Shown one piece after another: positions 1 through 55,132 of a stretch of 64,000 nt of DNA. The notes beneath the pieces were generated by a model that worked only from the letters and a program-made list of their open reading frames with translations, did not search any database and had not been told where the DNA came from. This DNA is from Parcubacteria group bacterium (GTDB taxonomy: Bacteria > Patescibacteriota > Minisyncoccia > Moranbacterales > UBA2206), in assembly GCA_041664225.1 (NCBI GenBank), contig JBAYLE010000002.1, positions 3,541-67,540 on the forward strand. Direction: 5' to 3'. The position numbers and the translations under genes were made by a program. Position 1 is the stretch's first letter, and each line of letters opens with the position of its first letter.

Positions 1-259
1 TATTGGAGATGGTGCGAGATTTTCATTTGATAATATGATCATCACTTCTACGCACAGTCTGAAAGATTTTAAAAAAATTACAGCGAAACCGGTTTGGATT
101 GGAAAAAATGTATGGGTAACAAGCCGTTGCATCATTATGCCAGGCGTAAAAATAGGAGATAACTCCGTAATCAGCGCTGGTAGCATTGTTAGAGACGACA
201 TTCCGGCCAATTGCATTGCCGCAGGCAACCCGGCCAAGGTGGTCAAATATCTGGAATAA
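1..259 (+). CDS. C-terminal fragment of a hexapeptide-repeat (left-handed beta-helix) sugar O-acetyltransferase; the 5' end lies outside the window
   Basis: The open frame runs from the window edge. The translation ...WIGKNVWVTSRCIIMPGVKIGDNSVISAGSIV...AAGNPAKVV shows the [LIV]-G hexapeptide periodicity and the AGNPA(K/R) tail typical of Mac/LacA-type acetyltransferases. Confidence 0.6.
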   Translation, partial: IGDGARFSFDNMIITSTHSLKDFKKITAKPVWIGKNVWVTSRCIIMPGVKIGDNSVISAGSIVRDDIPANCIAAGNPAKVVKYLE

Positions 260-6926: not shown

Positions 6927-6955
6927 CAAAAAACGTCCGCGCGGACGTTTTTTGA
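6927..6955 (+). terminator. Rho-independent terminator
   Basis: AAAAAACGTCCGC/GCGGACGTTTTTT is a perfect 9-bp GC-rich hairpin followed by a T-run. Confidence 0.8.
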
Positions 6956-6992: not shown

Positions 6993-7802
6993 ATGAACAA
7001 AAACAATAAACTGATCAAGCAAAAAGCCATAGTGTTTTCGATAATCATAATCTTGGTCGCGGGAGGATATTTTTTATATCAATATTATCAAAAAAAGACA
7101 GCGGCTGAATTTGCGGTTGAGGAAAAAATATCCGAGTTTGAGAATAAGATTCCATTGCAATGCGAAAATGGAGAATGGACTGAATTTCCGGATTACGCGC
7201 AAGCTGGAAACTTTCCAGAATTCAAAGGCAACGCAACCCTAAAAATGAAAGATGCCGAAAATTTTACTGACGCAGATGGCGCAGACTTCTTTACTACAGA
7301 TGAAAATTATTCGCTGGCTTTTTTCGCCGACAAAGCCGTCCGCATCGAGGGCTTGAATATCAGCTCAAGCAGCAAAAAAGAGATTTATGTCAAGCGGATC
7401 AAGTGCGTAGGTAAAGAAGCAGATCCGGAAATCCAATCACAAAGGCAAAACCTGATGAAATATTTGAGCGCCAACATCAACTCGCTGGCTCTCGAAAAAA
7501 GCGCCGTTGATGCGTGGCAAATCAATACTTTCTATTTTGTGAATGACAATGATATTTATGTGGAATATGAATCGCTGGGCTCTGTCGGCGGCGACGAACC
7601 CTATGACGGCCGTCTTTGGCTGATCCGGGCAACCAAACTGGAACGGACAATACCTGCCATCGAAACATTGGCCTATATACGAGAAGACGCGAAAGATCCA
7701 AGCAAAAACATCTTGAAACAGGGGACTGACTTATATAAAGACGCCACTGGCATGGCCGTTTATGAGCTTAATGACGATGCCACCAGATGGGTTATGCAAT
7801 AA
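6993..7802 (+). CDS. Secreted / membrane-anchored hypothetical protein (269 aa)
   Basis: It has an N-terminal signal-anchor (IVFSIIIILVAGGYFLY) and no recognised catalytic motif. Confidence 0.5.
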   Translation: MNKNNKLIKQKAIVFSIIIILVAGGYFLYQYYQKKTAAEFAVEEKISEFENKIPLQCENGEWTEFPDYAQAGNFPEFKGNATLKMKDAENFTDADGADFFTTDENYSLAFFADKAVRIEGLNISSSSKKEIYVKRIKCVGKEADPEIQSQRQNLMKYLSANINSLALEKSAVDAWQINTFYFVNDNDIYVEYESLGSVGGDEPYDGRLWLIRATKLERTIPAIETLAYIREDAKDPSKNILKQGTDLYKDATGMAVYELNDDATRWVMQ

Positions 7803-7819
7803 TAAATAAAAAAACACAT

Positions 7820-9652
7820 ATGCCTAATAAAACTGTCAAAGTTTCCATAAAACCGCTGAAGATATTCTTCATATTTTTGATCGCTGTTGTTGCTTCGGGA
7901 ATTGTTTATTTTACGAAATCAAATTTGAAAAAATCTTCTACGACCATCCGCAATGAGAACAAGATTGCGCAGGAACAGGAAATCGTCATGCCGTTAGAAA
8001 CCGGCGTGGCTGATTCTGGCCTTGAAAACACTTCTACTGTTGTTTCCGGACTGAACGCAAAGGTAATTTTCGACAGCTTTGAAGAAATTGACGGCAACAG
8101 CAGCCTAAAAGCAACTTTTCTGGAAAATCCATCTGCTTCAATAAAAATAAGCGACTATTTCAACAACATCGAGCCGGAAAAGTTCTATCGCTTGAGTTTT
8201 TTAGCAAAAACTTCCGCTAACAAAGAAATCGGTGTGTCTCTGCTGGGGGATGGCGATACCCAGAATTTGGGACAGCTAAAAATGCCGGGCAACAAAGGAG
8301 TGCGGTATTATGAGTTCAATTTTCAAGCGCAAAACAGCGCCCAAGATCTGGCACTGACATCCGGCGACAACACGCGAGCCGACATCTGGCTGGATGACTT
8401 TATGCTGGAATCATTGGATGTGAACTCCCCGGAAGAATTGCAAAATTTGAAACCGACGATTTTTGGCGATACCTCCTGGAAAAATACCGACCAATCACAA
8501 ACCGAAGATGAAAAGAATTCAGAAGATCTTTTGTCCAGAGCGGGAAACAAAATTGGACAAATTTTCCAACCATCCCAACCGCTTATTTCCGGTGCTGCCT
8601 TCAAAATTCAAAAAGTGGGAACTGGCGGAAAGGGAAACTATCAAATCCAATTGCGCGAATATGACCAAAATCTGGGAATAATTTCAGACAAAATACTAGC
8701 CTCGCGAAATATTTACGATGATTATCCACCCTCGATTGCTGATGAAATAAAAGAGAAGGAGCAAAACATTCGTGAAAATTTCGCAAAAAATGAGGATGAC
8801 ATCCGAAAAGGCAGAATTTCTGACGATTCAGCATCCGATCAGTACCCATCGAGTTTTACTCAAGAACAAATTGACGGTGCCAAGGCCCAAAAACGCCAAG
8901 AAAAAATGGAAATTGCCATTGAGGACATGAAAGAATCCTATAACCAGCCCTATGAATTGGAGATCCCGATTGCGGCTAAAATAGACACCAACAAAAAATA
9001 TTGGATCGGCATCGATACGGCTGGTGTTAAAGTTGACAAGAACAATTACATTAAAATTTTTTATAACAGCAAGCTTACTAGCGCGGAGGCTGAATCAAGC
9101 TTTATCAGCGACAAGGCAAGTACTTGGCAAGAATTTTACACATTGTGGTTTAAAACTTTTTATCCCGTGCACGCCCAAACACAAGGAGAGATTATTCTCA
9201 GCGGTGCCTCAATCTCAGATTTTGGCAATGGGAAACTTTTATATCGTTATCAATTTAATGACCAGGATTATGAATCCATTTCCGGGTTTCCCGACCGGAG
9301 AATTTATGACATGTATTCAGGGAATTTTGACAGCTCTGATACTTATGGAAACTATAGATTTTCCAAAGATAATGATTACGCGATATATAAGTTTAATACA
9401 CTGTACCCATCCGAAAAAATAATCATTCGAGAAGGATCTTTCCACCAGGGTCTCGCCATTGAATTTTCAACCGATGGCGAAAATTGGGAAGAGGTATATT
9501 CGGAAAATCCAGCGGAAAATAACCAAAAAATTAACCCGATTGCAATCTATCTTGAAAGTAAGAGCTCCTCATTTTATTTAAAAATAAGGCCGGCTGGAAA
9601 TAATTGTATTTTATTAGATCTTTCGCTAGAGGCAGAATTGGCCTCAAATTAA
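7820..9652 (+). CDS. Large secreted protein (about 610 aa) with a probable carbohydrate-binding (CBM/galactose-binding-like) beta-sandwich region
   Basis: Start at MPNKTVKV with an N-terminal TM anchor. The ORF-track start is 7787. The segment ...KATFLENPSASIKISDYF...YRLSFLAKTSANKEIGVSLLGDGDTQNLGQ...DIWLDDFMLE resembles CBM_4_9-type folds. The C-terminal half is Y/F/D/N-rich. Confidence 0.5.
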   Translation: MPNKTVKVSIKPLKIFFIFLIAVVASGIVYFTKSNLKKSSTTIRNENKIAQEQEIVMPLETGVADSGLENTSTVVSGLNAKVIFDSFEEIDGNSSLKATFLENPSASIKISDYFNNIEPEKFYRLSFLAKTSANKEIGVSLLGDGDTQNLGQLKMPGNKGVRYYEFNFQAQNSAQDLALTSGDNTRADIWLDDFMLESLDVNSPEELQNLKPTIFGDTSWKNTDQSQTEDEKNSEDLLSRAGNKIGQIFQPSQPLISGAAFKIQKVGTGGKGNYQIQLREYDQNLGIISDKILASRNIYDDYPPSIADEIKEKEQNIRENFAKNEDDIRKGRISDDSASDQYPSSFTQEQIDGAKAQKRQEKMEIAIEDMKESYNQPYELEIPIAAKIDTNKKYWIGIDTAGVKVDKNNYIKIFYNSKLTSAEAESSFISDKASTWQEFYTLWFKTFYPVHAQTQGEIILSGASISDFGNGKLLYRYQFNDQDYESISGFPDRRIYDMYSGNFDSSDTYGNYRFSKDNDYAIYKFNTLYPSEKIIIREGSFHQGLAIEFSTDGENWEEVYSENPAENNQKINPIAIYLESKSSSFYLKIRPAGNNCILLDLSLEAELASN

Positions 9653-9737
9653 GGAAATTTAGCCAGAATTAAATCTTTGACTATTTCGGCTAAATTTTAT
9701 AAAATAATAGGGTAATATCTTGAAGAATAATTTTCAC

Positions 9738-9869
9738 CCTGTTAAATAATCCGCCACAGCGGATTAAGATTTGAGAGAAAACAGGTGAATTTGCAGGGTT
9801 AATACTAACTATTAAAAAATAGGTTTGTTTCTACAAAAAAATAGAATCAAATCTTATTTAACAGGGTAA
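9738..9869 (+). promoter_or_regulatory. Structured 5' leader (nested long-range helices) immediately upstream of the GT2 start codon; riboswitch/attenuator-like
   Basis: CCCTGTTAAATAA (9738-9750) pairs perfectly with TTATTTAACAGGG (9855-9867), ending 2 nt before the ATG. Inside it, AAGATTTGA (9767-9775) pairs with TCAAATCTT (9847-9855). There are local hairpins TAATCCGC-CACA-GCGGATTA and CTATT-AAAA-AATAG. Confidence 0.45.
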
Positions 9870-10805
9870 ATGGAAAATAAGCCTTATCTTTCAATTGTGG
9901 TGCCAATTTATAACGAAGAGGGGAATGTCCGGGAATTGCACCGCCAAATCAAAGAAGCCTGCCAAAAAATCGGTAAGCCCTTCGAGATTGTTTTTGTGGA
10001 TGACGGCTCAAAAGACGCAACCGTCAAAAATTGCGAGGGTTTGAGCCCGCTTAAACTTATCAAATTCCGCAAAAATTTCGGACAGACAGCCGCTTTTGAC
10101 GCCGGCTTTAAAAACGCTACTGGCGAATTGATTGTCACTATGGACGGTGATCTGCAAAACGATCCGGCAGACATCCCTCTGCTTTTGGCCGAAATGCAGA
10201 AAGGTTTTGACATTGTCGCCGGTTGGCGCTGGAAAAGAAAAGACTCTTTCAACAAAAAATTCTTTTCCCGCACCGCTAATCTTTTGCGCAAATTTTTTAT
10301 CGCGGATACGATTCATGATTCCGGTTGCAGTTTGAAGGTTTTTAAAAGCGAATGTTTCGTCGATGTCGATCTTTTCGGCGAGATGCATCGCTTCATCCCA
10401 GCCATTTTGGAGTTACAGGGCTACAAAGTCGGCGAAGTAAAGGTCAGCCATCACCCCAGGATCCATGGCAAGACCAAATATAATTGGAAAAGATCCATTA
10501 AGGGCTTGGTGGACATGATTTCTATCTGGTTCTGGCGAAAATACGCCAACCGCCCGCTTCATCTTTTTGGGGGAACCGGTATTATCTTTTCATTATTAGG
10601 CGTAATCATTTTAGTCTGGATGATCATTGAAAAAATATTGGGCGCTTCCATCGCGGAAAAAATTTGGCCGTTGATCGGGGTGTTTTTGGTCCTGGTCGGC
10701 ATCCAGCTTTTTGTTTTTGGACTGCTCGCGGACATTATGATCAAAAATTATTACAAAAACAGGCATTCGATGAACTATTCAATCAAAGAAATTACAGAAT
10801 CGTAA
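9870..10805 (+). CDS. GT2-family polyprenyl-phosphate glycosyltransferase (dolichyl/undecaprenyl-phosphate mannose/glucose synthase-like, ArnC/GtrB type)
   Basis: LSIVVPIYNEEGNV...VFVDDGSKD...TMDGDLQNDP are GT-A DxD motifs. The C-terminal two TM helices are typical of DPM1/GtrB-like enzymes. Confidence 0.85.
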   Translation: MENKPYLSIVVPIYNEEGNVRELHRQIKEACQKIGKPFEIVFVDDGSKDATVKNCEGLSPLKLIKFRKNFGQTAAFDAGFKNATGELIVTMDGDLQNDPADIPLLLAEMQKGFDIVAGWRWKRKDSFNKKFFSRTANLLRKFFIADTIHDSGCSLKVFKSECFVDVDLFGEMHRFIPAILELQGYKVGEVKVSHHPRIHGKTKYNWKRSIKGLVDMISIWFWRKYANRPLHLFGGTGIIFSLLGVIILVWMIIEKILGASIAEKIWPLIGVFLVLVGIQLFVFGLLADIMIKNYYKNRHSMNYSIKEITES

Positions 10806-13589: not shown

Positions 13590-14508
13590 GTATTTGAAAT
13601 TTTTTCTGAAACTGGCCGTCAGCCTCGGCTTTGTTGCTTGGATAATTCTCAAGACCGACTGGGCCCAAGTTTTGCAATATCTGAGTGAAATTGATCTCTG
13701 GAAGCTGGTAGTGTATGTTCTGCTTATTGTTTTTGGAATTGCTATTTCGGCTCATAAATGGAGACTGCTGGCTAATTTCAAAAATATCTCCAGACATAGT
13801 TTTCGGGATTTTTACCAATTTTATCTTACGGGCACTTTTATTAATAATTTTATGCCCTCATTCATCGGCGGTGACACATTTCGTGCTTATCAAATCGGCC
13901 ACGCTGAAAAAAAATATATAGAGTCTGCTTCATCAGTCGTCGCTGACCGTATCACTGGCTTTGTCGCCATGACAATTTTGGCTTTGCTTTTCGGCCTTCT
14001 AAACCTTCAGCAAACACTCGACAATAAATTGCTTTTGCTTATTTATTCGATTCTGCTGCTTTCTTTTCTTTTGGATATCCTAATCGCCAAAACCAGAGAC
14101 TGGCGGTTGTGGAAAAAATTTCTAGCGCTTCTTCCACAAAAAATTGCGCGCTTCATAACAGAACTGCAGGACTATAGCCGGGACTCCGGAATTCTCACCA
14201 AAACTATTTTTTGGGGCATGATTTTTCAATTTGTCGGCGTGGCACTGGCTAATCTAGTGCTTTTTTGGGCGCTGGATATTCAAATTAGTCTTTTAAATTA
14301 TTTTTCCGTTATCTTTTTAATCAGTCTCATTTCTTCCATCCCGATCAGTATTAATAATATCGGCCTTAAGGAGTGGGCTTATGTCACTTTTTTTGGGATT
14401 TATGGGCTTGAAAGCTCAGCTTTGGTGACAATCGCCATCTTGAGCCGATTTATTCAGATGGTTATCAGTTTTTTGGCACTACCAGCCTATCTGAAAACAA
14501 AAAAATGA
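13582..14508 (+). CDS. Flippase-like membrane protein (lysylphosphatidylglycerol-synthase TM region / UPF0104 family)
   Basis: It has 8 TM helices. The first-helix motif ...WRLLANFKNI and the overall pattern match the LPG_synthase_TM family, which often partners with GT2/GT-C enzymes. It overlaps its neighbours on both sides. Confidence 0.65.
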   Translation: MHKYLKFFLKLAVSLGFVAWIILKTDWAQVLQYLSEIDLWKLVVYVLLIVFGIAISAHKWRLLANFKNISRHSFRDFYQFYLTGTFINNFMPSFIGGDTFRAYQIGHAEKKYIESASSVVADRITGFVAMTILALLFGLLNLQQTLDNKLLLLIYSILLLSFLLDILIAKTRDWRLWKKFLALLPQKIARFITELQDYSRDSGILTKTIFWGMIFQFVGVALANLVLFWALDIQISLLNYFSVIFLISLISSIPISINNIGLKEWAYVTFFGIYGLESSALVTIAILSRFIQMVISFLALPAYLKTKK

Positions 14509-16142
14509 ATTTATTTGGAATAATCCGTGAAAAAAAGAAAGTTTTTGTTCTGCTCCTGGCAATCATCGCGCTGGGAATTTTTTTGCGGACCTATCACTAC
14601 AGCGACTTGCTACGTTTCGGCAAAGATCAGGCGCGTGACGCATCCATCGTTCACAACATTATTGAAAAAAAAGAGCCCTTGCCGCTTCTGGGGCCAAAAG
14701 CTGGCGGCACTGATTTTCAAATGGGTCCCGTTTTTTATTATTTCCAGTACGCGTCCGCTTCAATTTTTGGCGCCACACCGGACAAAATGGCTTATCCAGA
14801 TTTGTTATTTTCCATCCTGACAATACCTCTATTGTTTCTGTTTTTGCGGAAATATCTAAACACTAATATCTCGCTTGCACTCACGGCCTTGTTTGCCGTC
14901 TCTTTTTTCGCCGTACAAAACGGACGCTTTGCCTGGAACCCAAATTCCTTGCCGTTTTTTTCCCTGCTTTTCTTGTATGCTTTTTTGCAGCTAGCTGAAA
15001 CCGCGAAAAACAAAAAATTATGGTGGTCTCTTATTTTGGGTTTTGCTCTGGGTATCGGCGCGCAACTGCATACGCTCTTTATTTTGATCGCCTCAGTTAT
15101 TTTTATTCTTTTTTGCGCCTACCTGATCCGCAAAAAAAATTTGAAAATAAAATGGGCTGTTTTAGTGATCGCCGTTGCGCTTTTGTTCAATATTCCTCAA
15201 ATTATTTCTGAAATCCAAACAAAAGGCTCCAATACAAAAGCTTTTTTCCAGGGCATCACTCAAAAAACAACCTTCAAGCATCCTTTTCCAAAAAACATCA
15301 TGTATGACGGCGCCTGGCATCTCCAGGCTAACACCTTATTTGTCGCTCCGATAGGCGACGATACTAGTCTGCATATTACAAGTCTAGCGGATTCTTTTAA
15401 GGACAACGAGAAGGGAATTGCGGGAATAACAAAATATTTGCCGGATTTACTGCGAATTGTTTTTGGTATCGCTTTAACTTTGGGCGGATATTTTTTACTT
15501 GGATTCTATCTAAAAAAAGAAAAGGATGTCTCAAAAAAAATGTTTTTGCAATTATTATCCTTGTATATCGCAGCTGCTTTTTTTGTTATGATCCCGCTTT
15601 CTTTTGTGCTTGAGCTCCGCTATTTTTTAATCGTTCAGTTTGTTCCGTTTTTGCTGCTGGGGCTACTGATAAAATTTTTCCGCGAAAAATACGGTCAAAC
15701 GGGGCTGCGTCTTTCATTAATAGTGATCTTGTTATTATGCGGATTGAATATTTATAAAGTCGCCAGCGAATTCAATTCTTTTTTAAACAGAGACGGCGAC
15801 GTCGGCATTGCCATCTGGAGCGAAGAAAAATTTGCTGGAGAATTTATCCTGGCGCATACGCAACCCGAGCAAGATGTGCACATGGTTTTTGAACCAGCCG
15901 AAGCGGATAAGTTCATCCGACCACTAGCCTATTTTGATGAAAATATTGACGCGCCTCTGGAACACAATGACGATACACCATTAGAAGACAGCAATGTCGC
16001 TTATTTTTCCCTTATTTTGGATGGACGGAAGGGGAAGGATACATTTAAACGCAACCTAAAAAAATCAGATTTATATATTATTTCGGATTCTGCCACCTAT
16101 GGACGATTGGCTATATACAAACTTGAATTGAAAGAAAAGTAA
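14505..16142 (+). CDS. GT-C glycosyltransferase of the ArnT/PMT (PMT_2) family
   Basis: The N-terminus RTYHYSDLLRFGKDQARDASIV sits in the first periplasmic loop after TM1. This is the position of the DE(x)RY-type catalytic motif in ArnT/PMT enzymes. It has about 11 TM helices plus a C-terminal soluble domain. Confidence 0.7.
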   Translation: MNLFGIIREKKKVFVLLLAIIALGIFLRTYHYSDLLRFGKDQARDASIVHNIIEKKEPLPLLGPKAGGTDFQMGPVFYYFQYASASIFGATPDKMAYPDLLFSILTIPLLFLFLRKYLNTNISLALTALFAVSFFAVQNGRFAWNPNSLPFFSLLFLYAFLQLAETAKNKKLWWSLILGFALGIGAQLHTLFILIASVIFILFCAYLIRKKNLKIKWAVLVIAVALLFNIPQIISEIQTKGSNTKAFFQGITQKTTFKHPFPKNIMYDGAWHLQANTLFVAPIGDDTSLHITSLADSFKDNEKGIAGITKYLPDLLRIVFGIALTLGGYFLLGFYLKKEKDVSKKMFLQLLSLYIAAAFFVMIPLSFVLELRYFLIVQFVPFLLLGLLIKFFREKYGQTGLRLSLIVILLLCGLNIYKVASEFNSFLNRDGDVGIAIWSEEKFAGEFILAHTQPEQDVHMVFEPAEADKFIRPLAYFDENIDAPLEHNDDTPLEDSNVAYFSLILDGRKGKDTFKRNLKKSDLYIISDSATYGRLAIYKLELKEK

Positions 16143-17613: not shown

Positions 17614-17642
17614 TTGCAAAAAGAGCTAAATTCGAGTATAAT
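17614..17642 (+). promoter_or_regulatory. Near-consensus sigma70-type promoter for the GT-C paralog operon
   Basis: TTGCAA (17614-17619), a 17-nt spacer, then TATAAT (17637-17642). The first ATG is at 17683. Confidence 0.55.
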
Positions 17643-17682
17643 AAAAGGCATTGGAATCCAAAAAATCACACTAATTATCGCC

Positions 17683-19791
17683 ATGATTTTACTAAAAAAT
17701 TGCCGCTTTCTTAATAATTTTTACCAAAAAATTGCCAAACGCAAAAATCTGTTGGTTGAATCTCTGCTTTGTTTTGCGCTTTTGATTTACTTTATTTTTG
17801 GATTTCACCATCTATCCAATTTTATTTCGGCCGATGAGCATTTTTGGCTGCCAAATTCTGGGACCGAGCGCATTGAGGATTATTGGACCGCCATCAAAAA
17901 AGGTGATTGGAAAGACACTCGCATCAACGACAAGCCCGGCATCACTCTGGCGTACACCTCGGGCATAGCCATGCTATTTGATGATGCTAAAGGCCAAATC
18001 ATAGACAGCGACGGAAACTTCAAGCGATATGATCCGGCTCGGACAAAAACGATAAATTTTTTGTATCGGTTACCAATTCTTCTCATCAGCGGCTTCTTCT
18101 CTTTTTTCTTTTTTTGGATCATCCGACGCATAACCGGGAACGAGTGGATCGCCTTATTTTCCGCCACCGGCATCCTGCTTTCACCTATTCTTTTAGGAAT
18201 TTCCCAGATCGTCAATCCTGATTCTCTCTTTTGGATTTTCGGATCAGCCTCGTTTTTTTCTTTTTATGCATTTTTGCAGACGCAAGAAAAAAAGTTTATT
18301 CTTCTTGCTTCTGTTTTTTTTGGTTTGGCAATGGCCAGTAAATATGTCAGCATAATTTTTATTCCCTTCTTTCTTTTCGCTATCTTCGCCTATTATTTTT
18401 TCGAATTTGAAAAATGGCAAAGCACTCCGCAAGAACTTAAAAAAATCGCCATCCGCATTGGCTTGGCGTATTTCGCTATCATTTTATCGGGCTTTTTGAT
18501 TTTTGCCCTTATGATGCCAGCTTCCTTCGTAGAACCGAAGATTTTTTATCTCGGAACGATTGGCTTCCCCGGCATGGAAATGATTTTTTGGCTGGCCATG
18601 GCTATAAACGCCCTTGTTCTTCTGGATGCGTGGATATTCAAAAGCCGCGGCCTTCATTTTTCGCTCAAAAAATTACAACCGCTGCAAAAAATCGCGCCGA
18701 AACTACTTTATTTAATCCTGCTTGGAACGTTCTTTTTTGTGCTGGTCAATTGGCTAACGCGCAACAGCTTTATTGATTTGTCCGACATATCTTTTGATAT
18801 GAAGCGCAAAGACGCATTCAGCGAGCTCGCATTTTACAAGCGCTATTTCATGGAATTTGTGCCTTTGGTTTTTTCCCTGACCCCGATCGCTCTTTGCACG
18901 CTTTTGTTTGGATGGATAAAAGCATTCTTTGCCAAAGGAAAAACCAACACTTTCGTTTTTACATTATCCGTGTTTTTTCTGATTTTTTATGCGGCTGTCA
19001 TCGAACAAGGACTCTTGGTCACAGTGCGTTATAGCATCATTCTTTTTCCACTAGCGCTGGTGCTTGGAGCAACCGCGCTAAATGATTTTTTTTCCGCCAA
19101 ATCACAAGAAGAAAATAAGAAAGCCTTTGTGGTTTTTATTTTTGCCTTTATCGGCATTACTGTTCTCTTCGCTTCGTCTACGATCCAGCAGAGTTATTTC
19201 ACCGGTGCCCTGAAAACTGTTTACCTTGACCGCGTTTATCAAAATTGGTATTTCATCCCGCTTTTCCTTTTGCTTGTGGGAGGATTGGCAAGGGCGGCTT
19301 ACGCTTATCTGCCATGGCAAAAAATTTTCCAAATTCCCAAAATTGGGATTTTTATCATATTGATCGCCCTAAATTCACTGAGTATTTTTCTGATATCTCC
19401 ATTTTATTTCAGCTACACTAATGACCTTTTACCAAAAAATTATATTATCAGCGGCGCTTGGGGCTATGGGGGATATGAAGCCGCCGAATATCTGAATGAT
19501 CTGCCGAATGCCCGGAATCTGACAATCTGGACCGATGTTTACGGAGTGTGTGAATTTTTTTCCGGTAAATGCATCCACAAATCCAAGATAAACACCAGCA
19601 AATACACGATTGATTATTATTTTCGGTCTTTGCAGGCGACTATTCCGCTGAATTTTCCGCATCCGATGGAAAAACATTCTATCTGGTCAATCTATATCGA
19701 TGACAGACCAGAAAGTTTTGTGAAATTATACAAAGCTAAACCGTTAAATTCATCGTCAACCGACGATAATAGTGATGGCACTTCTCAATGA
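17683..19791 (+). CDS. GT-C/PMT_2-family membrane glycosyltransferase, paralog 1 of a tandem array
   Basis: The ORF-track start at 17614 is a TTG inside the promoter, and the ATG at 17683 is the likely start. Blocks shared with the next two genes are SADEHFW, RINDKPGITLAY, LSPILLGISQI.NPDSLFW, SKYVSIIFIPFF, WGYGGYEAAEYLN and G.C.FF.GKC. Confidence 0.7.
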   Translation: MILLKNCRFLNNFYQKIAKRKNLLVESLLCFALLIYFIFGFHHLSNFISADEHFWLPNSGTERIEDYWTAIKKGDWKDTRINDKPGITLAYTSGIAMLFDDAKGQIIDSDGNFKRYDPARTKTINFLYRLPILLISGFFSFFFFWIIRRITGNEWIALFSATGILLSPILLGISQIVNPDSLFWIFGSASFFSFYAFLQTQEKKFILLASVFFGLAMASKYVSIIFIPFFLFAIFAYYFFEFEKWQSTPQELKKIAIRIGLAYFAIILSGFLIFALMMPASFVEPKIFYLGTIGFPGMEMIFWLAMAINALVLLDAWIFKSRGLHFSLKKLQPLQKIAPKLLYLILLGTFFFVLVNWLTRNSFIDLSDISFDMKRKDAFSELAFYKRYFMEFVPLVFSLTPIALCTLLFGWIKAFFAKGKTNTFVFTLSVFFLIFYAAVIEQGLLVTVRYSIILFPLALVLGATALNDFFSAKSQEENKKAFVVFIFAFIGITVLFASSTIQQSYFTGALKTVYLDRVYQNWYFIPLFLLLVGGLARAAYAYLPWQKIFQIPKIGIFIILIALNSLSIFLISPFYFSYTNDLLPKNYIISGAWGYGGYEAAEYLNDLPNARNLTIWTDVYGVCEFFSGKCIHKSKINTSKYTIDYYFRSLQATIPLNFPHPMEKHSIWSIYIDDRPESFVKLYKAKPLNSSSTDDNSDGTSQ

Positions 19792-21679
19792 CAATTTAAA
19801 ATCTCCCGAAGATTTTTTCAAGCGGAATAAATTTTGGGCGCTGCTGCTTTTGCCGCTGGCGATATATTTCTATTTTGGATTGCAACACCTCGCCCAATTC
19901 GAAACTGCCGACGAACACTATTGGATCTATAGCAACACCAATAATAATAATTACTGGGACAACAATAACGGGCGGATCGAACAATATTGGAGCGCGCTCG
20001 CTTCCGGCAACTGGAAAAAAACCCGCATCAATGACAAACCCGGCATAACTTTGGCGTATGTTTCCGGTATCGGTTCGTGGCTAAAGACAAATCTGGAGAA
20101 GGGGATTGTTTCTGGGGCCATCGCTCCGATGTCGAAAATCGACAAAGCGGAAAGGATAAATTTTTATTTTCGTTTTCCACTCTTGATTTTTAATGGACTT
20201 TTTTCGCTGGTTCTTTTCTTTTTAGTTAAAAAGCTGACAAAAAATGATTGGATCGCGCTTATAACCGCGACACTGATTTTGCTCTCTCCCATACTTCTGG
20301 GAATTTCGCAAATTATCAACCCGGATTCCTTATTGTGGGTATTCAGCTTCGCCGCAATTTTGACTTATCTTATCCATCTCAAAGAAAATAGCCTGCGATA
20401 TGCCTTATGGGCATCCCTGTTCTTGGGGTTATCTCTTCTCTCTAAATATTCTTCCATAATTTTATTTCCATTTTTCTTCGCCGTCATGCTGGCCTACCTC
20501 ATTGAAAATTTTAAATCTTGGGGCAAACAAACGATTGCTCGAAAAATTCGCCGCTACGCGTTCACATATTTTTTAATTATTGCCGGAGCCTTGTTTATTT
20601 ATGCTGTTTTGCTTCCCGATAATCTGGTAGAATTCCGCCATTTTATGAAGGGCAGTCTTGGCTTTAAGGGTATGCAGACTTTTTTTCTGGCATTGATTGG
20701 ATGTAATCTGCTTATTTTGCTCGACGCCCATTTTTTTCAGAGCAAGACCATGCGATGGGTCGCAAATACAATATCGCCCCTGGAAAAATACTTTAAGCTG
20801 GCTATTTTTACGATTTTGCCCATCCTTTTTATTGTTATTATTTTCAACACGCTTATCGAAAAAGACCAGCTCGGACTTTTCATAACGCCTTTTGACGCAT
20901 CTCTCAAGTCCATTTTTTCCCAGCTGCCTGACTGGAAAATCATTCTCAAGCAATTTTTGCCATTGATATTCTCTCTTTCGCCGATGGTCGTTTTATTTTT
21001 ACTGTATGCCTGGATCAGAAACTGGCGTAAAAGTGACGAATTCCAATGGATCATATTTGTCTTTTCATTTTTCATCCTTGTGCTCGTTGCTGCCTCTATG
21101 CAACAAAAAATAATGCTCATCGTGCGCTATAGTATCATGTTGTATCCTCTAGTTTTCACTATGGCGGCTATCGGGATTTATCAATTTTTTATGTTAGATA
21201 AAAAAAGCAATGCCTTTAAAACGGTTATTTTCACCGGGATAATTTTAATCAGTATCATAAGTCTTTGGCAAATCAAACCATTTTATTTTAACTACACCAG
21301 CAGATTGTTGCCCCAACAATATCTCACAACAGACGCCTGGGGCTACGGCGGATATGAGGCGGCTGAGTATTTGAATAGTTTGCCCGACGCCCAAAATATG
21401 CGTATTTGGTCTGATTACAACGGGGTTTGCCTTTTTTTCAACGGAAAATGCGAAGCAAATAATTTAACCATGAAAAACATCCGTAAAAAATCAGAATCAG
21501 CGCCGCGCTTCGATTATTTCGTTTCCGACCGCCGGGGCAGCATTTTGAGCCATAATTTATGGGAAAGCCTGCCCGAACAATATGGCAGCCAATTGATCCA
21601 AGAATCAAATATTGGCGGGCGGGCGGGAAATTTTATTCGAATTTATAAGAATAATTTAATCCAATCAAATGGAAACTAA
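19775..21679 (+). CDS. GT-C/PMT_2-family membrane glycosyltransferase, paralog 2
   Basis: Its start overlaps the end of paralog 1. The same conserved blocks are present (TADEHYW, RINDKPGITLAYVSGI, WGYGGYEAAEYLNSLPDAQN). Confidence 0.7.
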   Translation: MALLNDNLKSPEDFFKRNKFWALLLLPLAIYFYFGLQHLAQFETADEHYWIYSNTNNNNYWDNNNGRIEQYWSALASGNWKKTRINDKPGITLAYVSGIGSWLKTNLEKGIVSGAIAPMSKIDKAERINFYFRFPLLIFNGLFSLVLFFLVKKLTKNDWIALITATLILLSPILLGISQIINPDSLLWVFSFAAILTYLIHLKENSLRYALWASLFLGLSLLSKYSSIILFPFFFAVMLAYLIENFKSWGKQTIARKIRRYAFTYFLIIAGALFIYAVLLPDNLVEFRHFMKGSLGFKGMQTFFLALIGCNLLILLDAHFFQSKTMRWVANTISPLEKYFKLAIFTILPILFIVIIFNTLIEKDQLGLFITPFDASLKSIFSQLPDWKIILKQFLPLIFSLSPMVVLFLLYAWIRNWRKSDEFQWIIFVFSFFILVLVAASMQQKIMLIVRYSIMLYPLVFTMAAIGIYQFFMLDKKSNAFKTVIFTGIILISIISLWQIKPFYFNYTSRLLPQQYLTTDAWGYGGYEAAEYLNSLPDAQNMRIWSDYNGVCLFFNGKCEANNLTMKNIRKKSESAPRFDYFVSDRRGSILSHNLWESLPEQYGSQLIQESNIGGRAGNFIRIYKNNLIQSNGN

Positions 21680-23585
21680 AACAGAAGAAGCTAAAATGAA
21701 AGAAACCGAGCCGAAAGAAACCGAAAAGAAAAGGGCTGAAATAAAAAAAGACAAATCCTCTTGGTTTTTAGCCTTGCTTATCATCCCGCTAGTGCTTTAT
21801 TTCAATTTCGGTTTGCGGCATCTGACGCAATTTGAAACAGCGGATGAGCATTTGTGGATATCAGATTTATACACTGGACGGATTCAGAGCTATTGGAACG
21901 CCATGGCTTCCGAAAATTGGAAAGGCACCCGCATCAATGATAAACCCGGTATAACCTTAGCGTATGTTGCCGGCATCGGAACCTGGTTTGAAAACAATGT
22001 CCAGGACAAAATCGTCAAAAAAGCCAATTTGACCATAACCTATAATCCTGAGAAAACAACTGAAACCTTCTACATCTACCGCAAGCCCCAGGTCGTTTTC
22101 ACAGGCTTGATGGGAATTTTCTTCTGCTTAGCTTTATGGCGTCTAACTCGAAAAGTCTGGTTGGCCTTGGCCGGGGCCTCTCTGGTTTTGCTTTCTCCGA
22201 TCCTTATCGGCATCTCGCAAATCATTAACCCAGACGCAATGTTGTGGATCTTTTCTTCCGCCAGCCTGCTTTCTTTTTTCGTATTTTTGAAAGAAACAAG
22301 ATTTATTGATGCCTTTTTGGCCGCTTTTTTCCTCGGGTTATCACTTCTTTCAAAATACGTGGCACTCATATTTTTTCCATTTTTTCTAGTCATGCTTTTG
22401 GCCTATTTGCTGTTTTATTACACCGAATTGATCGAGCAGAAAACTTTGCTACGCAAAACAATTGAAATCACCTTGGGTTATATATTTATTATCGCCGGCA
22501 GCATCGGGCTGTTCGCGCTTGGCATGCCGGCAGCCATCGTCAATACCAGTATTATTTACAAATCGATTTTTGAATTCGGCGGCATGCAAAATATCCTTCT
22601 GATCTGTGCTGGAGTAAATCTCGTTCTTTTTTTGGACGCAGCGCTTTTGAAATCTTTTATCGCGAAATTTTTACTCAAATACCTCCAATTTCTAAAAATT
22701 GTCCTGCCAAAAATTTTGTATTTAGCTATGCTTGTTTTAGCCGCGGCCACTATCGCTAATTGGTCATTTATGAATAATTTTCTGCATACCCCAATTCTTG
22801 AGGTCGGCGGAGGTAAGCGGCCGATCATCCTCACTTTTCCTTTCTATCAGCAAATGGTTCTACAGGCTAAACCGTTGTTTTTTTCCATCACACCGATCGC
22901 TTTGTTTCTAATATTTTTTCTCTGGGCAAAATCAATCTTCCGCCGGAGCAGTTTTGATTATATTGTTTTTATCCTTTCACTTTTCTTTCTAGTCTTCTTT
23001 TACACGGTCACTCAGCAAGCCCTTTTGGTAAATGTCCGCTATTCCGTTGTTCTTTATCCTTTTGCGTTAACCTTGGCGGCCATCGGTTTTTATGAGATAA
23101 TTAAGAACCTCAAGCATTATTATTCACTAGCCTTGTTTTTGCTCCTGCTCGGCGCTAGCTATCTCAGTGTTTCCAAAATACAACCGTTCTACTTCAACTA
23201 CTCGAATGATTTACTGCCAAAGAATTCCATAATTACGACTGCCTGGGGCTATGGCGGATACGAGGCGATTAATTATATAAAGTCTCAAGGTGACCCCAAA
23301 AATATGAAGATTTGGGCAAACTATTATGGGGCCTGTCCGTTTTTTGCCGGTAAATGCGCCGTTGAGGGTTCAACCAAGTGGATGAAAGAGAGTGAAATTT
23401 TGAATATTGATTATGTAATTCTCAGCCAAGACGGACTTAGCAAAAACAAAAAAGGACTGCAGGCTATCAATGAGATATTTCCAACTGACAACCCGGTTTG
23501 GGAACTAGTTATCGACGGCCGACCGGACAATTTTGTCAAAGTATATAAAAATCCTTTAAAACAAACTACTTATGAAAACAATTGA
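21669..23585 (+). CDS. GT-C/PMT_2-family membrane glycosyltransferase, paralog 3 (K/E-rich N-terminal tail)
   Basis: It overlaps paralog 2 by 11 nt. Blocks TADEHLW, RINDKPGITLAYVAGIGTW and WGYGGYEAINYI are present. Confidence 0.7.
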   Translation: METKTEEAKMKETEPKETEKKRAEIKKDKSSWFLALLIIPLVLYFNFGLRHLTQFETADEHLWISDLYTGRIQSYWNAMASENWKGTRINDKPGITLAYVAGIGTWFENNVQDKIVKKANLTITYNPEKTTETFYIYRKPQVVFTGLMGIFFCLALWRLTRKVWLALAGASLVLLSPILIGISQIINPDAMLWIFSSASLLSFFVFLKETRFIDAFLAAFFLGLSLLSKYVALIFFPFFLVMLLAYLLFYYTELIEQKTLLRKTIEITLGYIFIIAGSIGLFALGMPAAIVNTSIIYKSIFEFGGMQNILLICAGVNLVLFLDAALLKSFIAKFLLKYLQFLKIVLPKILYLAMLVLAAATIANWSFMNNFLHTPILEVGGGKRPIILTFPFYQQMVLQAKPLFFSITPIALFLIFFLWAKSIFRRSSFDYIVFILSLFFLVFFYTVTQQALLVNVRYSVVLYPFALTLAAIGFYEIIKNLKHYYSLALFLLLLGASYLSVSKIQPFYFNYSNDLLPKNSIITTAWGYGGYEAINYIKSQGDPKNMKIWANYYGACPFFAGKCAVEGSTKWMKESEILNIDYVILSQDGLSKNKKGLQAINEIFPTDNPVWELVIDGRPDNFVKVYKNPLKQTTYENN

Positions 23586-38060: not shown

Positions 38061-38320
38061 GACCTTGCCAGACATGCCCTTAGAAAAAACTTATTTTATT
38101 GCAAATCCTTTAAAGATTTCAGGGGCTTTAAATAAGCCTTTTTTTATTTAACCGCTGGGTCTTGACAAACTAGTTTTTTTATGCAACAATAGACGGTTGC
38201 ACATTAACAATCTTTGCCTAGCGTTTAAAACGCTTGAAGTTATATAAAAAAAGGGCATCACGCTGATATATAGCGTAGTAATGATAATTATATCCAAGTA
38301 ATTCAAAGGAGGGATATACC

Positions 38321-48854: not shown

Positions 48855-48869
48855 TTCAAAACAAAACTT

Positions 48870-48892
48870 AAAAAGCCCATAAGGGCTTTTTA
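48870..48892. terminator. Bidirectional terminator between pyrG and rpmA
   Basis: AAAAGCCC-ATAA-GGGCTTTTT. Confidence 0.8.
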
Positions 48893-48914
48893 AGTTTATA
48901 GAAAACGGATCAAT

Positions 48915-53857: not shown

Positions 53858-55132
53858 ATGGCAAAAAATAAAAAAATATATTTGGATCATGCCGCGACCA
53901 CTCCGGTTGACCAGGCAGTTTTGAAAGAAATGCTCCCATATTTTTCCGAAAAATATGGCAATGCGATGTCTGTGCATTCTTTCGGCCAAGAAGCACTAAA
54001 AGCGGTAGACACAGCTCGAACTCAAGTCGCTCAATTTTTTGGCGCAAAGCCAAGTGAAATAATTTTTACCAGCGGAGCCACTGAATCAAACAATTTATCC
54101 ATTAATGGTGTTTTAAAATCATATTATTCAAAATTTCACCCTGTTAAATCCGCTAAGGACGGTGTGAAGCAATTTAATGGGGTAAAAATAAAACCACATA
54201 TTATCACTACCGCGTTTGAACATCATTGTGTTTTGGACGCGTGTAGGGCTTCAGAAAGAGATGGCTTGGCCGAAGTTACTTTTTTAAAACCAGACAGGGA
54301 CGGTTTGATAAGCGTGAAAGAAGTTGAAAAATCAATTAAATCAAATACGATCTTGATTTCCATCATGTACGTGAACAATGAAATTGGAACCATACAACCC
54401 ATTGAAAAGATAGGCAAGATGATCAAAAAGAAAAATGCTGAGCGCAATGATTTTTCTTCTTTCCCTATCATATTTCACACTGATGCGACACAGGCTATTA
54501 ATTATTTCGATTGCAATATTGGCAAATTAAATGTCGACCTGTTATCGATGTCAGCGCATAAGATATATGGACCCAAAGGAATCGGCGTCCTTTTCATAAA
54601 AAATGGCACACCGATAAAAAAAATCCAGGACGGGGGAGATCAGGAATATAAAATGAGAGCCGGTACACATAACGTCCCCGGCATCGTCGGATTGGGTAAA
54701 GCAATAGAGGAAGTCAAAAGTCAAAAGTCAAAAGTCGAAAACATTGTCTCGCTTCGCGACTATTTAATTAAAAGAGTTTTAAAAGAAATTCCCAAAACTA
54801 TTCTAAACGGATCAAAACACAAACGTTCTCCGAATAACGCTAACTTTAGTTTCGCGGACGTGGAGGGGGAGGGCTTGCTGCTTTCTCTGGATATGGAAGG
54901 AATAGCCTGTTCAACCGGATCAGCTTGCTCTTCGGGCGCCCTTTCACCGTCGCACGTTTTGCTCGCAATCGGCCTAAAACCTGAACAGGCGCATGGATCG
55001 CTCCGAATCACCCTCGGTAAGCATACGACCAAACAAGAGATTGACGTGGCTATAAGCAAGATAAAATCAGTGGTTGAAAGACTCCGAAAAATTTCTGGTA
55101 ATGTCCTCAAAGATTTTTATACTAAAAAATAA
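53858..55132 (+). CDS. iscS: Cysteine desulfurase (IscS/NifS class)
   Basis: The PLP-Lys region is SMSAHKIYGPKGIG. The catalytic Cys loop is STGSACSSG. It contains an in-frame (AAAAGTC)n repeat at 54711-54736. Confidence 0.95.
   Translation: MAKNKKIYLDHAATTPVDQAVLKEMLPYFSEKYGNAMSVHSFGQEALKAVDTARTQVAQFFGAKPSEIIFTSGATESNNLSINGVLKSYYSKFHPVKSAKDGVKQFNGVKIKPHIITTAFEHHCVLDACRASERDGLAEVTFLKPDRDGLISVKEVEKSIKSNTILISIMYVNNEIGTIQPIEKIGKMIKKKNAERNDFSSFPIIFHTDATQAINYFDCNIGKLNVDLLSMSAHKIYGPKGIGVLFIKNGTPIKKIQDGGDQEYKMRAGTHNVPGIVGLGKAIEEVKSQKSKVENIVSLRDYLIKRVLKEIPKTILNGSKHKRSPNNANFSFADVEGEGLLLSLDMEGIACSTGSACSSGALSPSHVLLAIGLKPEQAHGSLRITLGKHTTKQEIDVAISKIKSVVERLRKISGNVLKDFYTKK

What the first reader, a model, noticed from the sequence alone, without database searches (positions are those of the whole stretch)
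9738..9869. Nested long-range helices forming a 130-nt structured leader that sequesters the start region of the polyprenyl-phosphate GT2 gene
Two perfectly complementary long-range pairs are unlikely by chance in 130 nt. One is a 13-bp pair (9738-9750 with 9855-9867, ending 2 nt before the ATG). The other is a 9-bp pair (9767-9775 with 9847-9855). Two local hairpins are also present, and one competes for the same bases as the outer helix. This is the architecture of a riboswitch, thermosensor or attenuator that occludes the ribosome-binding region. I could not match it to a known riboswitch class from memory.
Basis: seen in the sequence. Interest (0 to 1): 0.55.

Follow-up and report, generated by a model that had tools for sequence, protein, structure and literature searches.

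The report
Dispersed palindromic repeat in gene leader
The folded "leader" in front of the glycosyltransferase gene is real, but it is one copy of a previously undescribed small repeat that is scattered through the genomes of ultra-small (Patescibacteria) bacteria, usually right next to start codons and sometimes inside genes, not a sensor dedicated to this gene.

Summary
The helices exist (perfect 14-bp pair 9736-9749/9854-9867, 10-bp pair 9765-9774/9847-9856, hairpin 9747-9766) and exceed chance. They are not a riboswitch of the GT2 gene. The two closest orthologous loci keep the same promoter and start codon but lack a 135-nt block (9735-9869). That block is therefore a lineage-specific insertion.

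The same arms, at similar spacing, occur in at least 120 metagenome contigs. These copies share a three-way-junction layout. P2 and P3 keep pairing through compensatory changes. The ends are asymmetric (TTCA...TAAA).

In the main subfamily an ORF starts exactly 3 nt after the element in 31 of 73 copies. The downstream genes are unrelated to each other: ribosomal proteins, tRNA synthetases, pilins, PGK.

A second, short copy sits in frame inside the window's cysteine desulfurase gene (54137-54184). The closest orthologs lack it.

No Rfam family matches, no paper describes it, and no transposase was found nearby.

Best reading: a new MITE/RPE-like structured repeat family of Patescibacteria, co-transcribed in the GT2 5'UTR, where it raises the cost of opening the start region.

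Still open: the start-codon adjacency and a sense-strand-only purine motif hint at an RNA-level role, such as translation control or transcript processing.

The parts
9677..9705 (+). Sigma-70-like promoter of the GT2 gene (-35 TTGACT 9677-9682, 17-nt spacer, -10 TAAAAT 9700-9705). The predicted transcription start is near 9712, upstream of the element.
   Evidence: Consensus scan, 10 of 12 matches. Both hexamers and the spacing are conserved in orthologous loci L085 and L083.
9735..9869 (+). Inserted element, 135 nt (5'-CACCCTG...CAGGGTAA-3'). It is absent from the closest orthologous loci and lies between the ancestral ~25-nt leader and the ATG.
   Evidence: Alignment of the window with L085 and L083 shows one clean 135-nt gap. 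Covariance model R1 scores 106 bits, E 1.7e-20, on 9731-9872.
9733..9749 (+). P1 5' arm (TTCACCCTGTTAAATAA). TTCACCC resembles the 3' end of 16S rRNA (anti-SD-like).
   Evidence: Flank and arm consensus of 67 copies: aaaaaaTTCACCCTGTTAAATAa. The rRNA resemblance is my own knowledge and was not tested.
9854..9870 (+). P1 3' arm (TTATTTAACAGGGTAAA). It ends on the A of the GT2 start codon.
   Evidence: Consensus TTATTTAACAGGGTAAAt.
9747..9766 (+). P2 hairpin (TAATCCGC CACA GCGGATTA). Its sequence varies but it is always a hairpin in homologous copies.
   Evidence: All 6 modelled P2 pairs show changes on both sides across 44 copies.
9765..9774 (+). P3 5' strand (TAAGATTTGA).
   Evidence: 7 of 9 P3 pairs show compensatory changes.
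9847..9856 (+). P3 3' strand (TCAAATCTTA).
9781..9800 (+). Internal purine motifs ACAGGTGAAT (9781-9790) and GCAGGGTT (9793-9800). They are complementary to the P1 5' arm (TTCACCCTG) and could be an alternative pairing partner.
   Evidence: In 74 subfamily-A copies, GGTG occurs in 20 and AGGG in 21 on the sense strand. The complements CACC and CCCT occur in 2 each. See also I5.
9820..9849 (+). Conserved AATAAG(G)TTG motif followed by the P4 hairpin (TTCTA 9829-9833 / TAGAA 9842-9846). 9821-9827 can pair with 9848-9854, in competition with P3.
   Evidence: MFE structure. Motif and hairpin are visible in alignment A1.
9870..10805 (+). GT2 glycosyltransferase gene, the host gene whose 5'UTR carries the element.
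   Evidence: Pfam PF00535, E 4e-32. The same ATG is used in orthologs.
54133..54188 (+). Second, short copy of the family, in frame inside the cysteine desulfurase gene (53858-55132). The inserted 48 nt (54137-54184) encode HPVKSAKDGVKQFNGV.
   Evidence: R1 hit of 33.8 bits, E 1.3e-4, better on the + strand. The insertion is seen relative to solved desulfurases and relative to the closest orthologs.

Best explanation
The 135-nt block 9735-9869 is one copy of a dispersed, non-coding, palindromic repeat family of Patescibacteria. The window comes from a Moranbacteria/Parcubacteria genome.

Architecture of a copy:
- a strongly conserved closing helix P1 (ACCCUGUUAAAUAA / UUAUUUAACAGGGU, extended by TTCA/TAAA with a conserved C.A mismatch);
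- a hairpin P2 of free sequence;
- a second arm P3 that carries a variable, A-rich interior and a small hairpin P4.

Together these form a three-way junction.

Shown:
- The copy entered this lineage between the ancestral short leader and the ATG of the GT2 gene, at a T-run/A-run junction and without an obvious target duplication.
- A second, short copy entered the cysteine desulfurase gene in frame.

Inferred:
- The family spreads, or has spread, as a MITE/RPE-like mobile element. The enzyme that moves it was not found.
- The promoter lies upstream, so the element is transcribed as part of the GT2 5'UTR. There it folds, puts the start codon at the foot of a 17-bp helix, and raises the energy needed to open the initiation region by about 6 kcal/mol. 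The most likely consequence for GT2 is constitutive damping of translation, or near-neutrality if the compact fold simply bridges the upstream leader to the AUG.
- It is not ligand- or temperature-dependent switching specific to this gene.
For: Insertion:
- Orthologous loci L083 (89% aa identity) and L085 (83%, same upstream gene) keep the promoter, the AGGGTAATAT leader and the ATG, but lack 135 nt.
- 17 species-level relatives have unrelated upstream regions.

Family:
My own estimate of the chance expectation is a few.
- Covariance model R1 finds further copies on the same contigs, 2 copies in the 64-kb window, and 2 in the 21-kb locus L207.
- Host taxa where named: Moranbacteria, Paceibacterota, Parcubacteria.

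Structure:
- 96.7% of cells are paired against 86.7% in shuffles. There are 129 compensatory cells against 32 expected. 0 of 500 shuffles reach the observed values.
- P1 variants CCCYATGGAAT/ATTCCAYRGGG and CCCCG/CGGGG keep pairing.

Not gene-specific:
- 47 downstream proteins hit 65 different Pfam families. GT2 appears only in the window.

Presence/absence at three sites:
- GT2 leader.
- Cysteine desulfurase.
- The promoter-ATG gap of L207:3369-3477, compared with the window and L209.

Other:
- Short, nested and tandem units occur.
- The Logan contig L002 breaks inside the conserved 3' part of the element, as expected for a repeat.
- No Rfam family matches.
- Opening energy is 8.0 kcal/mol with the element and 1.8 without.
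Against: - No autonomous element with the same termini was found. No transposase or recombinase recurs near copies or occurs in the window.
- There is no consistent target-site duplication. Flanks are subfamily-specific and pair with each other.
- Copies on one contig can differ completely in P2 and the interior while keeping perfect stems. That looks more like selection for structure than neutral decay of selfish DNA.
- 31 of 73 subfamily-A copies end exactly 3 nt before an ORF start, and 49 of 73 end within 11 nt, always in the same orientation.
- A purine motif occurs on the sense strand only.
- At one set of orthologous loci the element is more conserved than the flanking coding DNA.

These last points suggest an RNA-level function that a purely selfish element would not need.
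Confidence: 0.65

Rival explanations
1. The family is a portable RNA module with a host function, and mobility is only how it spreads. It is placed directly before start codons in genomes that mostly lack Shine-Dalgarno sequences. It could work in one of two ways. (a) It is a processing or punctuation site, where an endoribonuclease cuts at the foot of P1 and leaves a leaderless or near-leaderless, 5'-protected cistron. (b) It is a translational switch, in which the anti-SD-like arm UUCACCC pairs either with the start-proximal GGGUAAA or with the internal GGGUGAA decoy.
For: - Fixed position and orientation relative to ORF starts: +3 in 31 of 73 copies.
- Copies lie inside ribosomal-protein operons and before IF-2, SerRS, PilB and pilins, so they must be compatible with expression of essential genes.
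- The sense-strand-only internal motif is complementary to the 5' arm, and it pairs the C that is mismatched in P1.
- Stems are kept perfect while loops and the interior diverge, including between orthologous copies.
- Most genes in the window lack an SD, and many have a TATAAT box 6-12 nt before the ATG, which suggests leaderless initiation is common.
Against: - There is no expression or cleavage data.
- The closest relatives do without the element at the same genes.
- G.U (15) and A.C (9) mismatches in helices do not differ significantly. Non-Watson-Crick pairs are only about 4%, which is more typical of DNA palindromes than of RNA helices.
- The in-frame coding copy in the window has a decayed P2.
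- P1 plus P3 are far more stable than the alternative pairing, so a two-state switch is not obvious.
Confidence: 0.25
2. One reading: a riboswitch, thermosensor or attenuator that controls this GT2 gene by occluding its ribosome-binding region in response to a signal such as a sugar nucleotide or a polyprenyl phosphate.
For: - The start region is paired.
- Competing helices exist.
- Some unpaired motifs (GGUGA, AAUAAGUUG) recur in relatives of the element.
Against: - Absent from orthologous GT2 leaders.
- Homologs precede unrelated genes.
- No Rfam hit even at E up to 10.
- No terminator-like site on the + strand.
- P1 is a perfect 14-bp helix whose opening cost stays at 8-11 kcal/mol from 37 down to 15 C, unlike the weak helices of RNA thermometers.
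Confidence: 0.03
3. A DNA-level recombination site that folds in single-stranded DNA. It would be like an integron attC site or a dif/Xer-type site, used by a site-specific recombinase.
For: - The size range of the units (about 48-150 nt) matches attC sites.
- GTTAAAT and ATTTAAC fit the attC core consensus GTTRRRY / RYYYAAC. TGTTAAAT equals the end of the XerD arm of E. coli dif (my own knowledge).
- Helices are almost free of wobble pairs.
- GC-rich hairpins in short units carry GAA/GAAG loops. My own knowledge is that such loops form stable DNA mini-hairpins.
Against: - The order of the two core-like heptamers is the reverse of attC: GTTAAAT lies in the 5' arm and ATTTAAC in the 3' arm.
- Neighbouring genes are syntenic housekeeping genes, not cassettes.
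- There is no integrase or recombinase in the window, and none recurs near copies.
- In-frame coding copies and start-codon polarity are not attC properties.
Confidence: 0.05

Closest known systems
Rickettsia palindromic elements (RPE)
   Same: - Small (about 100-150 bp) palindromic repeats with no coding capacity.
- Found both between genes and inserted in frame into unrelated protein-coding genes without destroying them (review PMC10969869).
- Here a 48-nt unit adds 16 residues to a loop of cysteine desulfurase.
- No associated transposase is known or found.
   Different: - Different phylum and, as far as I can tell, unrelated sequence.
- This family has a three-way-junction layout with a highly conserved closing helix.
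- Its main subfamily sits just upstream of start codons rather than inside ORFs.
Bacterial MITEs co-transcribed with genes (Neisseria Correia/NEMIS elements, enterobacterial ERIC/IRU, pneumococcal BOX/RUP)
   Same: - 50-300-bp non-autonomous repeats with terminal inverted repeats and many dispersed copies.
- Insertion polymorphism between relatives.
- They are transcribed into mRNAs, where they fold into long hairpins that change mRNA stability, processing or translation (my own knowledge; reviews PMC10969869 and PMC2229807 appear).
   Different: - No TA or other regular target duplication is seen here.
- No parental IS with matching ends was found.
- Internal hairpins covary instead of being near-identical copies.
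- The fixed 3-nt distance to the start codon has no counterpart known to me.
REP / REPIN elements mobilised by RAYT transposases
   Same: - Two conserved inverted arms separated by a less conserved spacer.
- Intergenic location, often inside operons.
- Hairpin formation in single strands.
   Different: - No GTAG/CGTC tag at the ends (family features as titled in PMC3733652).
- The arms are not themselves short palindromes.
- No Y1 transposase was found in the window or near copies.
Structure-bridged (split) ribosome-binding sites, e.g. phage T4 genes 38 and 25
   Same: A stable fold between the upstream initiation signal and the AUG can bring them together. Several copies have a canonical SD (AAGGAGG, AAGAGG) immediately 5' of the element and the ATG 3-5 nt 3' of it. 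Once P1 forms, SD and AUG are then at normal spacing. This is a 'works like' comparison from my own knowledge.
   Different: - The T4 hairpins are short, gene-specific and not mobile.
- The GT2 copy has no SD at its 5' border.
Integron attC sites
   Same: - Similar length range.
- Imperfect inverted repeats with a variable central structure.
- Conserved heptamers that fit GTTRRRY / RYYYAAC.
- An ORF often starts just after the site.
   Different: - The heptamer order is reversed.
- There are no cassette arrays.
- There is no integrase.
- Copies occur inside conserved operons and in frame inside genes.

Membership tests
Riboswitch (any class) | Conserved in the leaders of orthologous genes | tested here: not met
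   L083 and L085 (89% and 83% aa identity) lack the whole 135-nt block. 17 species-level relatives have unrelated upstream DNA.
Riboswitch (any class) | Associated with a functionally coherent set of genes | tested here: not met
   47 downstream proteins hit 65 Pfam families (ribosomal proteins, aaRS, pilins, PGK, SSB and others). GT2 appears only once.
Riboswitch (any class) | Match to a curated covariance model | tested here: not met
   Rfam 15 cmscan on 9300-10300 at E up to 10 gives only chance-level hits. No family covers elements in 20 other loci.
Riboswitch (any class) | Conserved unpaired nucleotides forming a ligand pocket; ligand-dependent structure change | not testable with these tools
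   Partly conserved unpaired motifs exist (GGUGA, AAUAAGUUG). Ligand binding needs in-line probing.
RNA thermometer (ROSE, fourU type) | Start region held by a weak, mismatch-containing helix that melts in the physiological range | tested here: not met
   P1 is 14 perfect bp. The opening energy of -15..+12 is 11.0, 9.5 and 8.0 kcal/mol at 15, 25 and 37 C.
Transcription attenuator | Intrinsic terminator (GC stem plus U run) with a competing antiterminator in the leader | tested here: not met
   No terminator-like site on the + strand between 9400 and 10100.
MITE | Short (<500 bp), non-coding, with terminal inverted repeats | tested here: met
   135 nt with arms of 14 perfect bp, or 17 with one mismatch.
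MITE | Multiple dispersed copies | tested here: met
   At least 120 contigs. Extra copies lie on the same contigs. There are 2 copies in the window.
MITE | Filled and empty orthologous sites | tested here: met
   GT2 leader, cysteine desulfurase, and L207:3369-3477 against the window and L209.
MITE | Target-site duplication of fixed length | tested here: inconclusive
   At the GT2 and desulfurase sites the element lies at TTT(T)^AA(A) with no duplication. One diverged copy is flanked by a duplicated TTGAC. Flanks are subfamily-specific.
MITE | Parental autonomous IS with the same termini | tested here: not met
   No arms flank a transposase gene in about 1.1 Mb of held loci. The IS630-like DDE_3 gene next to the L203 copy has different inverted repeats. 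Whole genomes were not searched.
Rickettsia palindromic elements | In-frame insertion into protein-coding genes with the reading frame kept | tested here: met
   48 nt (16 aa) at 54137-54184. Orthologs P0122-P0124 and P0132 lack it. This is a functional analogy only.
Rickettsia palindromic elements | Sequence homology to RPE-1..10 | not tested
The different phylum makes homology unlikely.
REP/REPIN | GTAG or CGTC tag and a RAYT (Y1 transposase) in the genome | tested here: not met
   The ends read CACCCTG.../...CAGGGTA. No Y1_Tnp was found in window ORFs or among recurrent neighbours. The rest of the genome was not seen.
Integron attC | R'' RYYYAAC at the 5' end and R' GTTRRRY at the 3' end of the top strand | tested here: not met
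   GTTAAAT lies in the 5' arm and ATTTAAC in the 3' arm on either strand.
Integron attC | Cassette array next to an intI integrase | tested here: not met
   The flanking genes are syntenic in relatives without the element. There is no integrase in the window.

The most novel reading that the evidence does not exclude
The family is a mobile RNA 'punctuation / initiation cassette' of Patescibacteria. It would be a self-folding three-way junction that inserts exactly at the 5' edge of start codons. Its conserved closing helix and asymmetric ends would be recognised by a ribonuclease or by the ribosome. Internal or promoter-distal cistrons in these SD-poor, leaderless-prone genomes would then be processed into 5'-protected, leaderless or near-leaderless mRNAs. 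Alternatively, they would be switched through the anti-SD-like arm UUCACCC and its internal decoy GGGUGAA. That would resemble tRNA punctuation in mitochondria, but it would be carried by a transposable element.
Probability: 0.2. Interest if true: 0.8.

Novelty: new variant of a known kind. Interest (0 to 1): 0.55.

Why it matters
Patescibacteria have tiny, streamlined genomes and are usually described as poor in mobile DNA and in known regulatory RNAs. Three things would matter here.

- **A resource.** A widespread structured repeat that sits at start codons of essential genes and inside proteins has not been described as far as I could find. It is a new marker for strain-level variation in these uncultured bacteria.
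- **A warning for annotation.** The element looks like a riboswitch, breaks short-read assemblies, and adds peptide insertions of the form xPVK...FNRV to proteins.
- **A possible window on translation.** It may show how translation starts, or how operon transcripts are processed, in organisms that mostly lack Shine-Dalgarno sequences.

For the GT2 gene itself, the practical message is that its long folded leader is a recent insertion and not an ancestral control element.

Tried and rejected
1. Rfam cmscan of the region at E up to 10, and of 20 other loci at gathering thresholds. Nothing covers the element.
2. Search for other copies in the window by sequence. Only a 16-nt match at 54134 turned up. 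The covariance model later showed it to be a short copy.
3. Orthologous leaders from 17 GTDB species representatives. There is no conservation and no shared upstream gene.
4. Viral contigs scanned with the arm pattern. No hits.
5. Literature search for the arm sequences. Only primers and a Picrophilus plasmid sequence came up, which are irrelevant. A search for MITE/REP together with Patescibacteria or CPR found no description.
6. attC and dif readings. Rejected because the order of the core-like heptamers is reversed and there is no recombinase (see the membership test).
7. Strand test by wobble pairs. G.U 15 against A.C 9, which is inconclusive.
8. Search for a parental IS.
   - Orphan arms gave only longer (~290 nt) non-coding copies.
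   - Clustering of 537 neighbouring ORFs gave pilus, ribosomal and IF-2 genes, and no transposase.
   - The DDE_3 transposase beside the L203 copy has unrelated ends.
9. Small leader-peptide ORFs after the internal SD-like motif. They are not conserved between copies (inspection output).
10. Internal promoter reading of the element. No consistent -35/-10 pair could be placed in the conserved parts (inspection).

Full report
**1. The observation**

- A perfect 14-bp inverted repeat, 9736-9749/9854-9867. It extends to 17 nt with one C.A mismatch (9733-9749/9854-9870) and so reaches the A of the ATG.
- A perfect 10-bp repeat, 9765-9774/9847-9856.
- An 8-bp hairpin, 9747-9754/9759-9766, that shares bases with both long-range helices.

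Several measures put this above chance.
- As RNA, 9730-9885 folds to -39.7 kcal/mol (z = -5.3; 0 of 200 shuffles fold as well).
- The longest inverted repeat in 1000 shuffles of the spacer is 12 nt, against 14 observed.
- It is the only long-range perfect repeat of 14 nt or more in the 64-kb window.

**2. Context and organism**

- The window is a cell-envelope glycan locus. It holds GT2, UDP-glucose dehydrogenase, GT4, PMT_2 paralogs, a flippase, an O-antigen ligase and LytR.
- The organism is a Moranbacteria/Parcubacteria (Patescibacteria) bacterium.
- A promoter-like site lies upstream of the helices: TTGACT, 17 nt, TAAAAT, at 9677-9705.
- Both hexamers and the spacing are conserved in the two closest orthologous loci. 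The region is therefore very probably part of the GT2 5'UTR.

**3. Orthologous leaders**

- Seventeen species-level relatives from GTDB (59-79% protein identity) have unrelated upstream sequences and different upstream genes.
- Two much closer loci from a JGI metagenome are decisive: L083 (89% identity) and L085 (83%, with the same upstream gene as the window).
- Both align with the window through the promoter, the AGGGTAATAT leader and the ATG. Both lack exactly 135 nt, window positions 9735-9869.
- The folded region is therefore a lineage-specific insertion between an ancestral ~25-nt leader and the start codon.

**4. A large family**

My own estimate of the chance expectation is a few. The hits share far more than the pattern that was searched for.
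- The ends are asymmetric: aaaaaaTTCACCCTGTTAAATAA ... TTATTTAACAGGGTAAAT.
- A hairpin (P2) follows the 5' arm directly. Its sequence differs from copy to copy.
- A second helix (P3, AAGATTTGA/TCAAATCTT and variants) is present.
- The P3 interior is A-rich and ends in AATAAGTTG plus a small hairpin (P4).

A covariance model built from 39 copies (R1) gave these results.
- The window copy scores 106 bits.
- On 44 strong matches, 96.7% of cells are paired against 86.7% in shuffles. There are 129 compensatory cells against 32 expected. All 6 P2 pairs and 7 of 9 P3 pairs changed on both sides. This alignment was fitted to the model.
- P1 was fixed by the search pattern. However, copies found only by the model show paired P1 variants: CCCYATGGAAT/ATTCCAYRGGG and CCCCG/CGGGG.
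- Short units of about 50-75 nt (P1 plus two hairpins), nested and tandem units, and ~290-nt versions also occur.
- Extra copies lie on the same contigs. My rough reading is about one copy per 30 kb.

Named hosts are Moranbacteria and Paceibacterota/Parcubacteria. No Rfam family covers any copy. I found no description in the literature.

**5. Where copies sit**

In the subfamily of the window copy (flanks TTCA...TAAA; 73 of 121 pattern hits):
- An ORF starts exactly 3 nt after CAGGG (GGGTAAATG) in 31 copies, and within 11 nt in 49. The orientation is always the same.
- The 47 downstream proteins are unrelated to each other. They include ribosomal proteins L2, S19, L11 and S17, SerRS, Tyr/TrpRS, PGK, SSB, NDK, adenylate kinase and pilins. 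Only the window has GT2.
- Genes that recur near copies are pilus ATPases, IF-2, ribosomal proteins and sigma factors. No transposase recurs.
- In several copies a canonical SD or a -10 box lies directly at the 5' border.

**6. A second copy inside a gene**

- R1 finds a short copy at 54133-54188 (33.8 bits, E 1.3e-4) inside the cysteine desulfurase gene (53858-55132).
- Compared with solved desulfurases and with the closest orthologs (P0122-P0124 and P0132, 74-77% identity), the window protein carries 16 extra residues, HPVKSAKDGVKQFNGV. They are encoded by 54137-54184.
- P-V-K and F-N-G-V are the translated P1 arms.
- More distant orthologs (L207, L208) carry intact short units at the same site. 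Others carry a different insert there.
- The syntenic closest relative, L209, has the empty site AAGTTT|AAG.
- A third filled/empty pair is L207:3369-3477. This diverged copy lies between a -10 box and the ATG, and it is absent at the syntenic site of the window and of L209.
- In-frame coding insertion of a palindromic repeat is the hallmark of Rickettsia palindromic elements (PMC10969869).

**7. What it most likely is and does**

Shown:
- The GT2 leader structure is a copy of a dispersed, structurally constrained repeat family.
- Copies show insertion polymorphism at orthologous sites.

Inferred:
- The family is, or was, mobile in the manner of a MITE/RPE. The mechanism is unknown.
  - The two clean sites look like insertion of 5'-CACCCTG...CAGGGTA(A)-3' at a T-run/A-run junction without duplication.
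  - One diverged copy is flanked by a duplicated TTGAC.
- No parental element was found. An IS630-like gene beside one copy has unrelated ends.
- For GT2, the element lengthens the 5'UTR from about 25 to about 158 nt.
- It also raises the computed cost of opening -15..+12 around the ATG from 1.8 to 8.0 kcal/mol at 37 C.
- The likely effect is constitutive damping of initiation, or near-neutrality if the compact junction simply bridges leader and AUG. It is not signal-dependent control.

**8. What remains unexplained**

Several features go beyond a plain selfish repeat.
- The fixed distance and polarity to start codons.
- Tolerance in front of essential genes.
- A purine motif (GGTGA/AGGGT) found almost only on the sense strand. 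It is complementary to the 5' arm, and it pairs the C that is mismatched in P1.
- Copies on one contig that differ completely in P2 yet keep perfect stems.
- Orthologous loci L136/L167/L189.
  - By my count, all 12 differences between L167 and L189 within the element fall in loops or the interior, or are compensated.
  - The element is roughly 5% diverged between L136 and L167, against roughly 25% for the adjacent coding DNA. These are my counts from the alignment.
- Most genes in the window have no SD, and many have a TATAAT box 6-12 nt before the ATG. Initiation in this organism may therefore be largely leaderless or SD-independent.

A family-level RNA function (a processing site or a translational module) is therefore a serious rival, at about 0.25. 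Against it:
- Wobble pairs give no strand signal (G.U 15 against A.C 9), and helices are about 96% Watson-Crick.
- The closest relatives do without the element.
- The coding copy in the window is decaying.

**9. Verdict**

There is a real, conserved, start-occluding fold in a transcribed leader, but it is not a riboswitch, thermosensor or attenuator of this gene.
- It is best filed as a new, structurally distinctive family of MITE/RPE-like repeats in Patescibacteria.

Noticed in passing
window 54133-54188 (gene 53858-55132): A short copy of the same repeat family is inserted in frame in the cysteine desulfurase gene. It adds 16 residues (HPVKSAKDGVKQFNGV) in a loop, and its P2 stem is partly decayed. 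The closest orthologs lack it.
   Followed up: yes
orthologs of window 53858-55132: P0129, P0133, P0136, P0138, P0212: At the same loop position other Moranbacteria desulfurases carry a different insert (PTNYE..VRITK type, one with RRDSRRDSR). This suggests a second palindromic element family, or a hot spot for insertions.
   Followed up: partly
window, upstream of many genes, e.g. 12417, 16151(-), 25150(-), 35669, 38856, and the small ORF starting at 49309: Most genes lack a Shine-Dalgarno sequence. Only 33675 and 38321 have a clear GGAGG. Many genes have a TATAAT-like box 6-12 nt before the ATG, as expected for leaderless or very short-leader mRNAs.
   Followed up: partly
window 9655-9697: Imperfect hairpin AAATTTAGCCAGAAT / ATTTCGGCTAAATTT just after the stop of ORF 7787-9652. 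It overlaps the -35 box of the GT2 promoter and may be the terminator of the upstream gene.
   Followed up: no
window 38137-38152 / 38239-38254 and 51639-51652 / 51725-51738: Two further long-range inverted repeats in intergenic regions: 16 nt at 94% complementarity with 86 nt between the arms, and 14 nt at 93% with 72 nt between. Neither matched model R1. No tRNA is predicted anywhere in the window.
   Followed up: no
window 48864-48897 and 6927-6954: Perfect 15-bp and 14-bp hairpins flanked by A and T runs. They look like bidirectional terminators after the CTP synthase gene and before ORF 6993.
   Followed up: no
L203:1-1250: An IS630-like insertion sequence (DDE_3 plus HTH transposase, 360 aa) with its own ~26-bp inverted repeats (TATAG..GTCACATAAATAATTTCA). 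It lies about 300 nt from a GC-rich copy of the repeat. The ends differ, so it is not the parental element.
   Followed up: partly
L192:265-398 and 664-793: Two copies of another subfamily flank the secE gene on a 1.3-kb contig. One lies on each side of a 67-aa essential gene.
   Followed up: partly
L136:665-676 and the aligned positions of L167 and L189: The coding region about 100 nt upstream of the element contains ATTTTCAC(C/T)CTG, nearly identical to the element's 5' end. This may be chance or the trace of an older copy.
   Followed up: no
L002:1-29 (Logan contig of SRR18595301): An independent assembly of the same genome breaks 26 nt before the GT2 ATG, inside the conserved 3' part of the element. 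This is typical of repeat-induced contig ends.
   Followed up: partly
window 17614-23585: Three tandem paralogous PMT_2 (GT39/GT83-like) membrane glycosyltransferase genes. A fourth lies at 14505-16142 in the same glycan locus.
   Followed up: no
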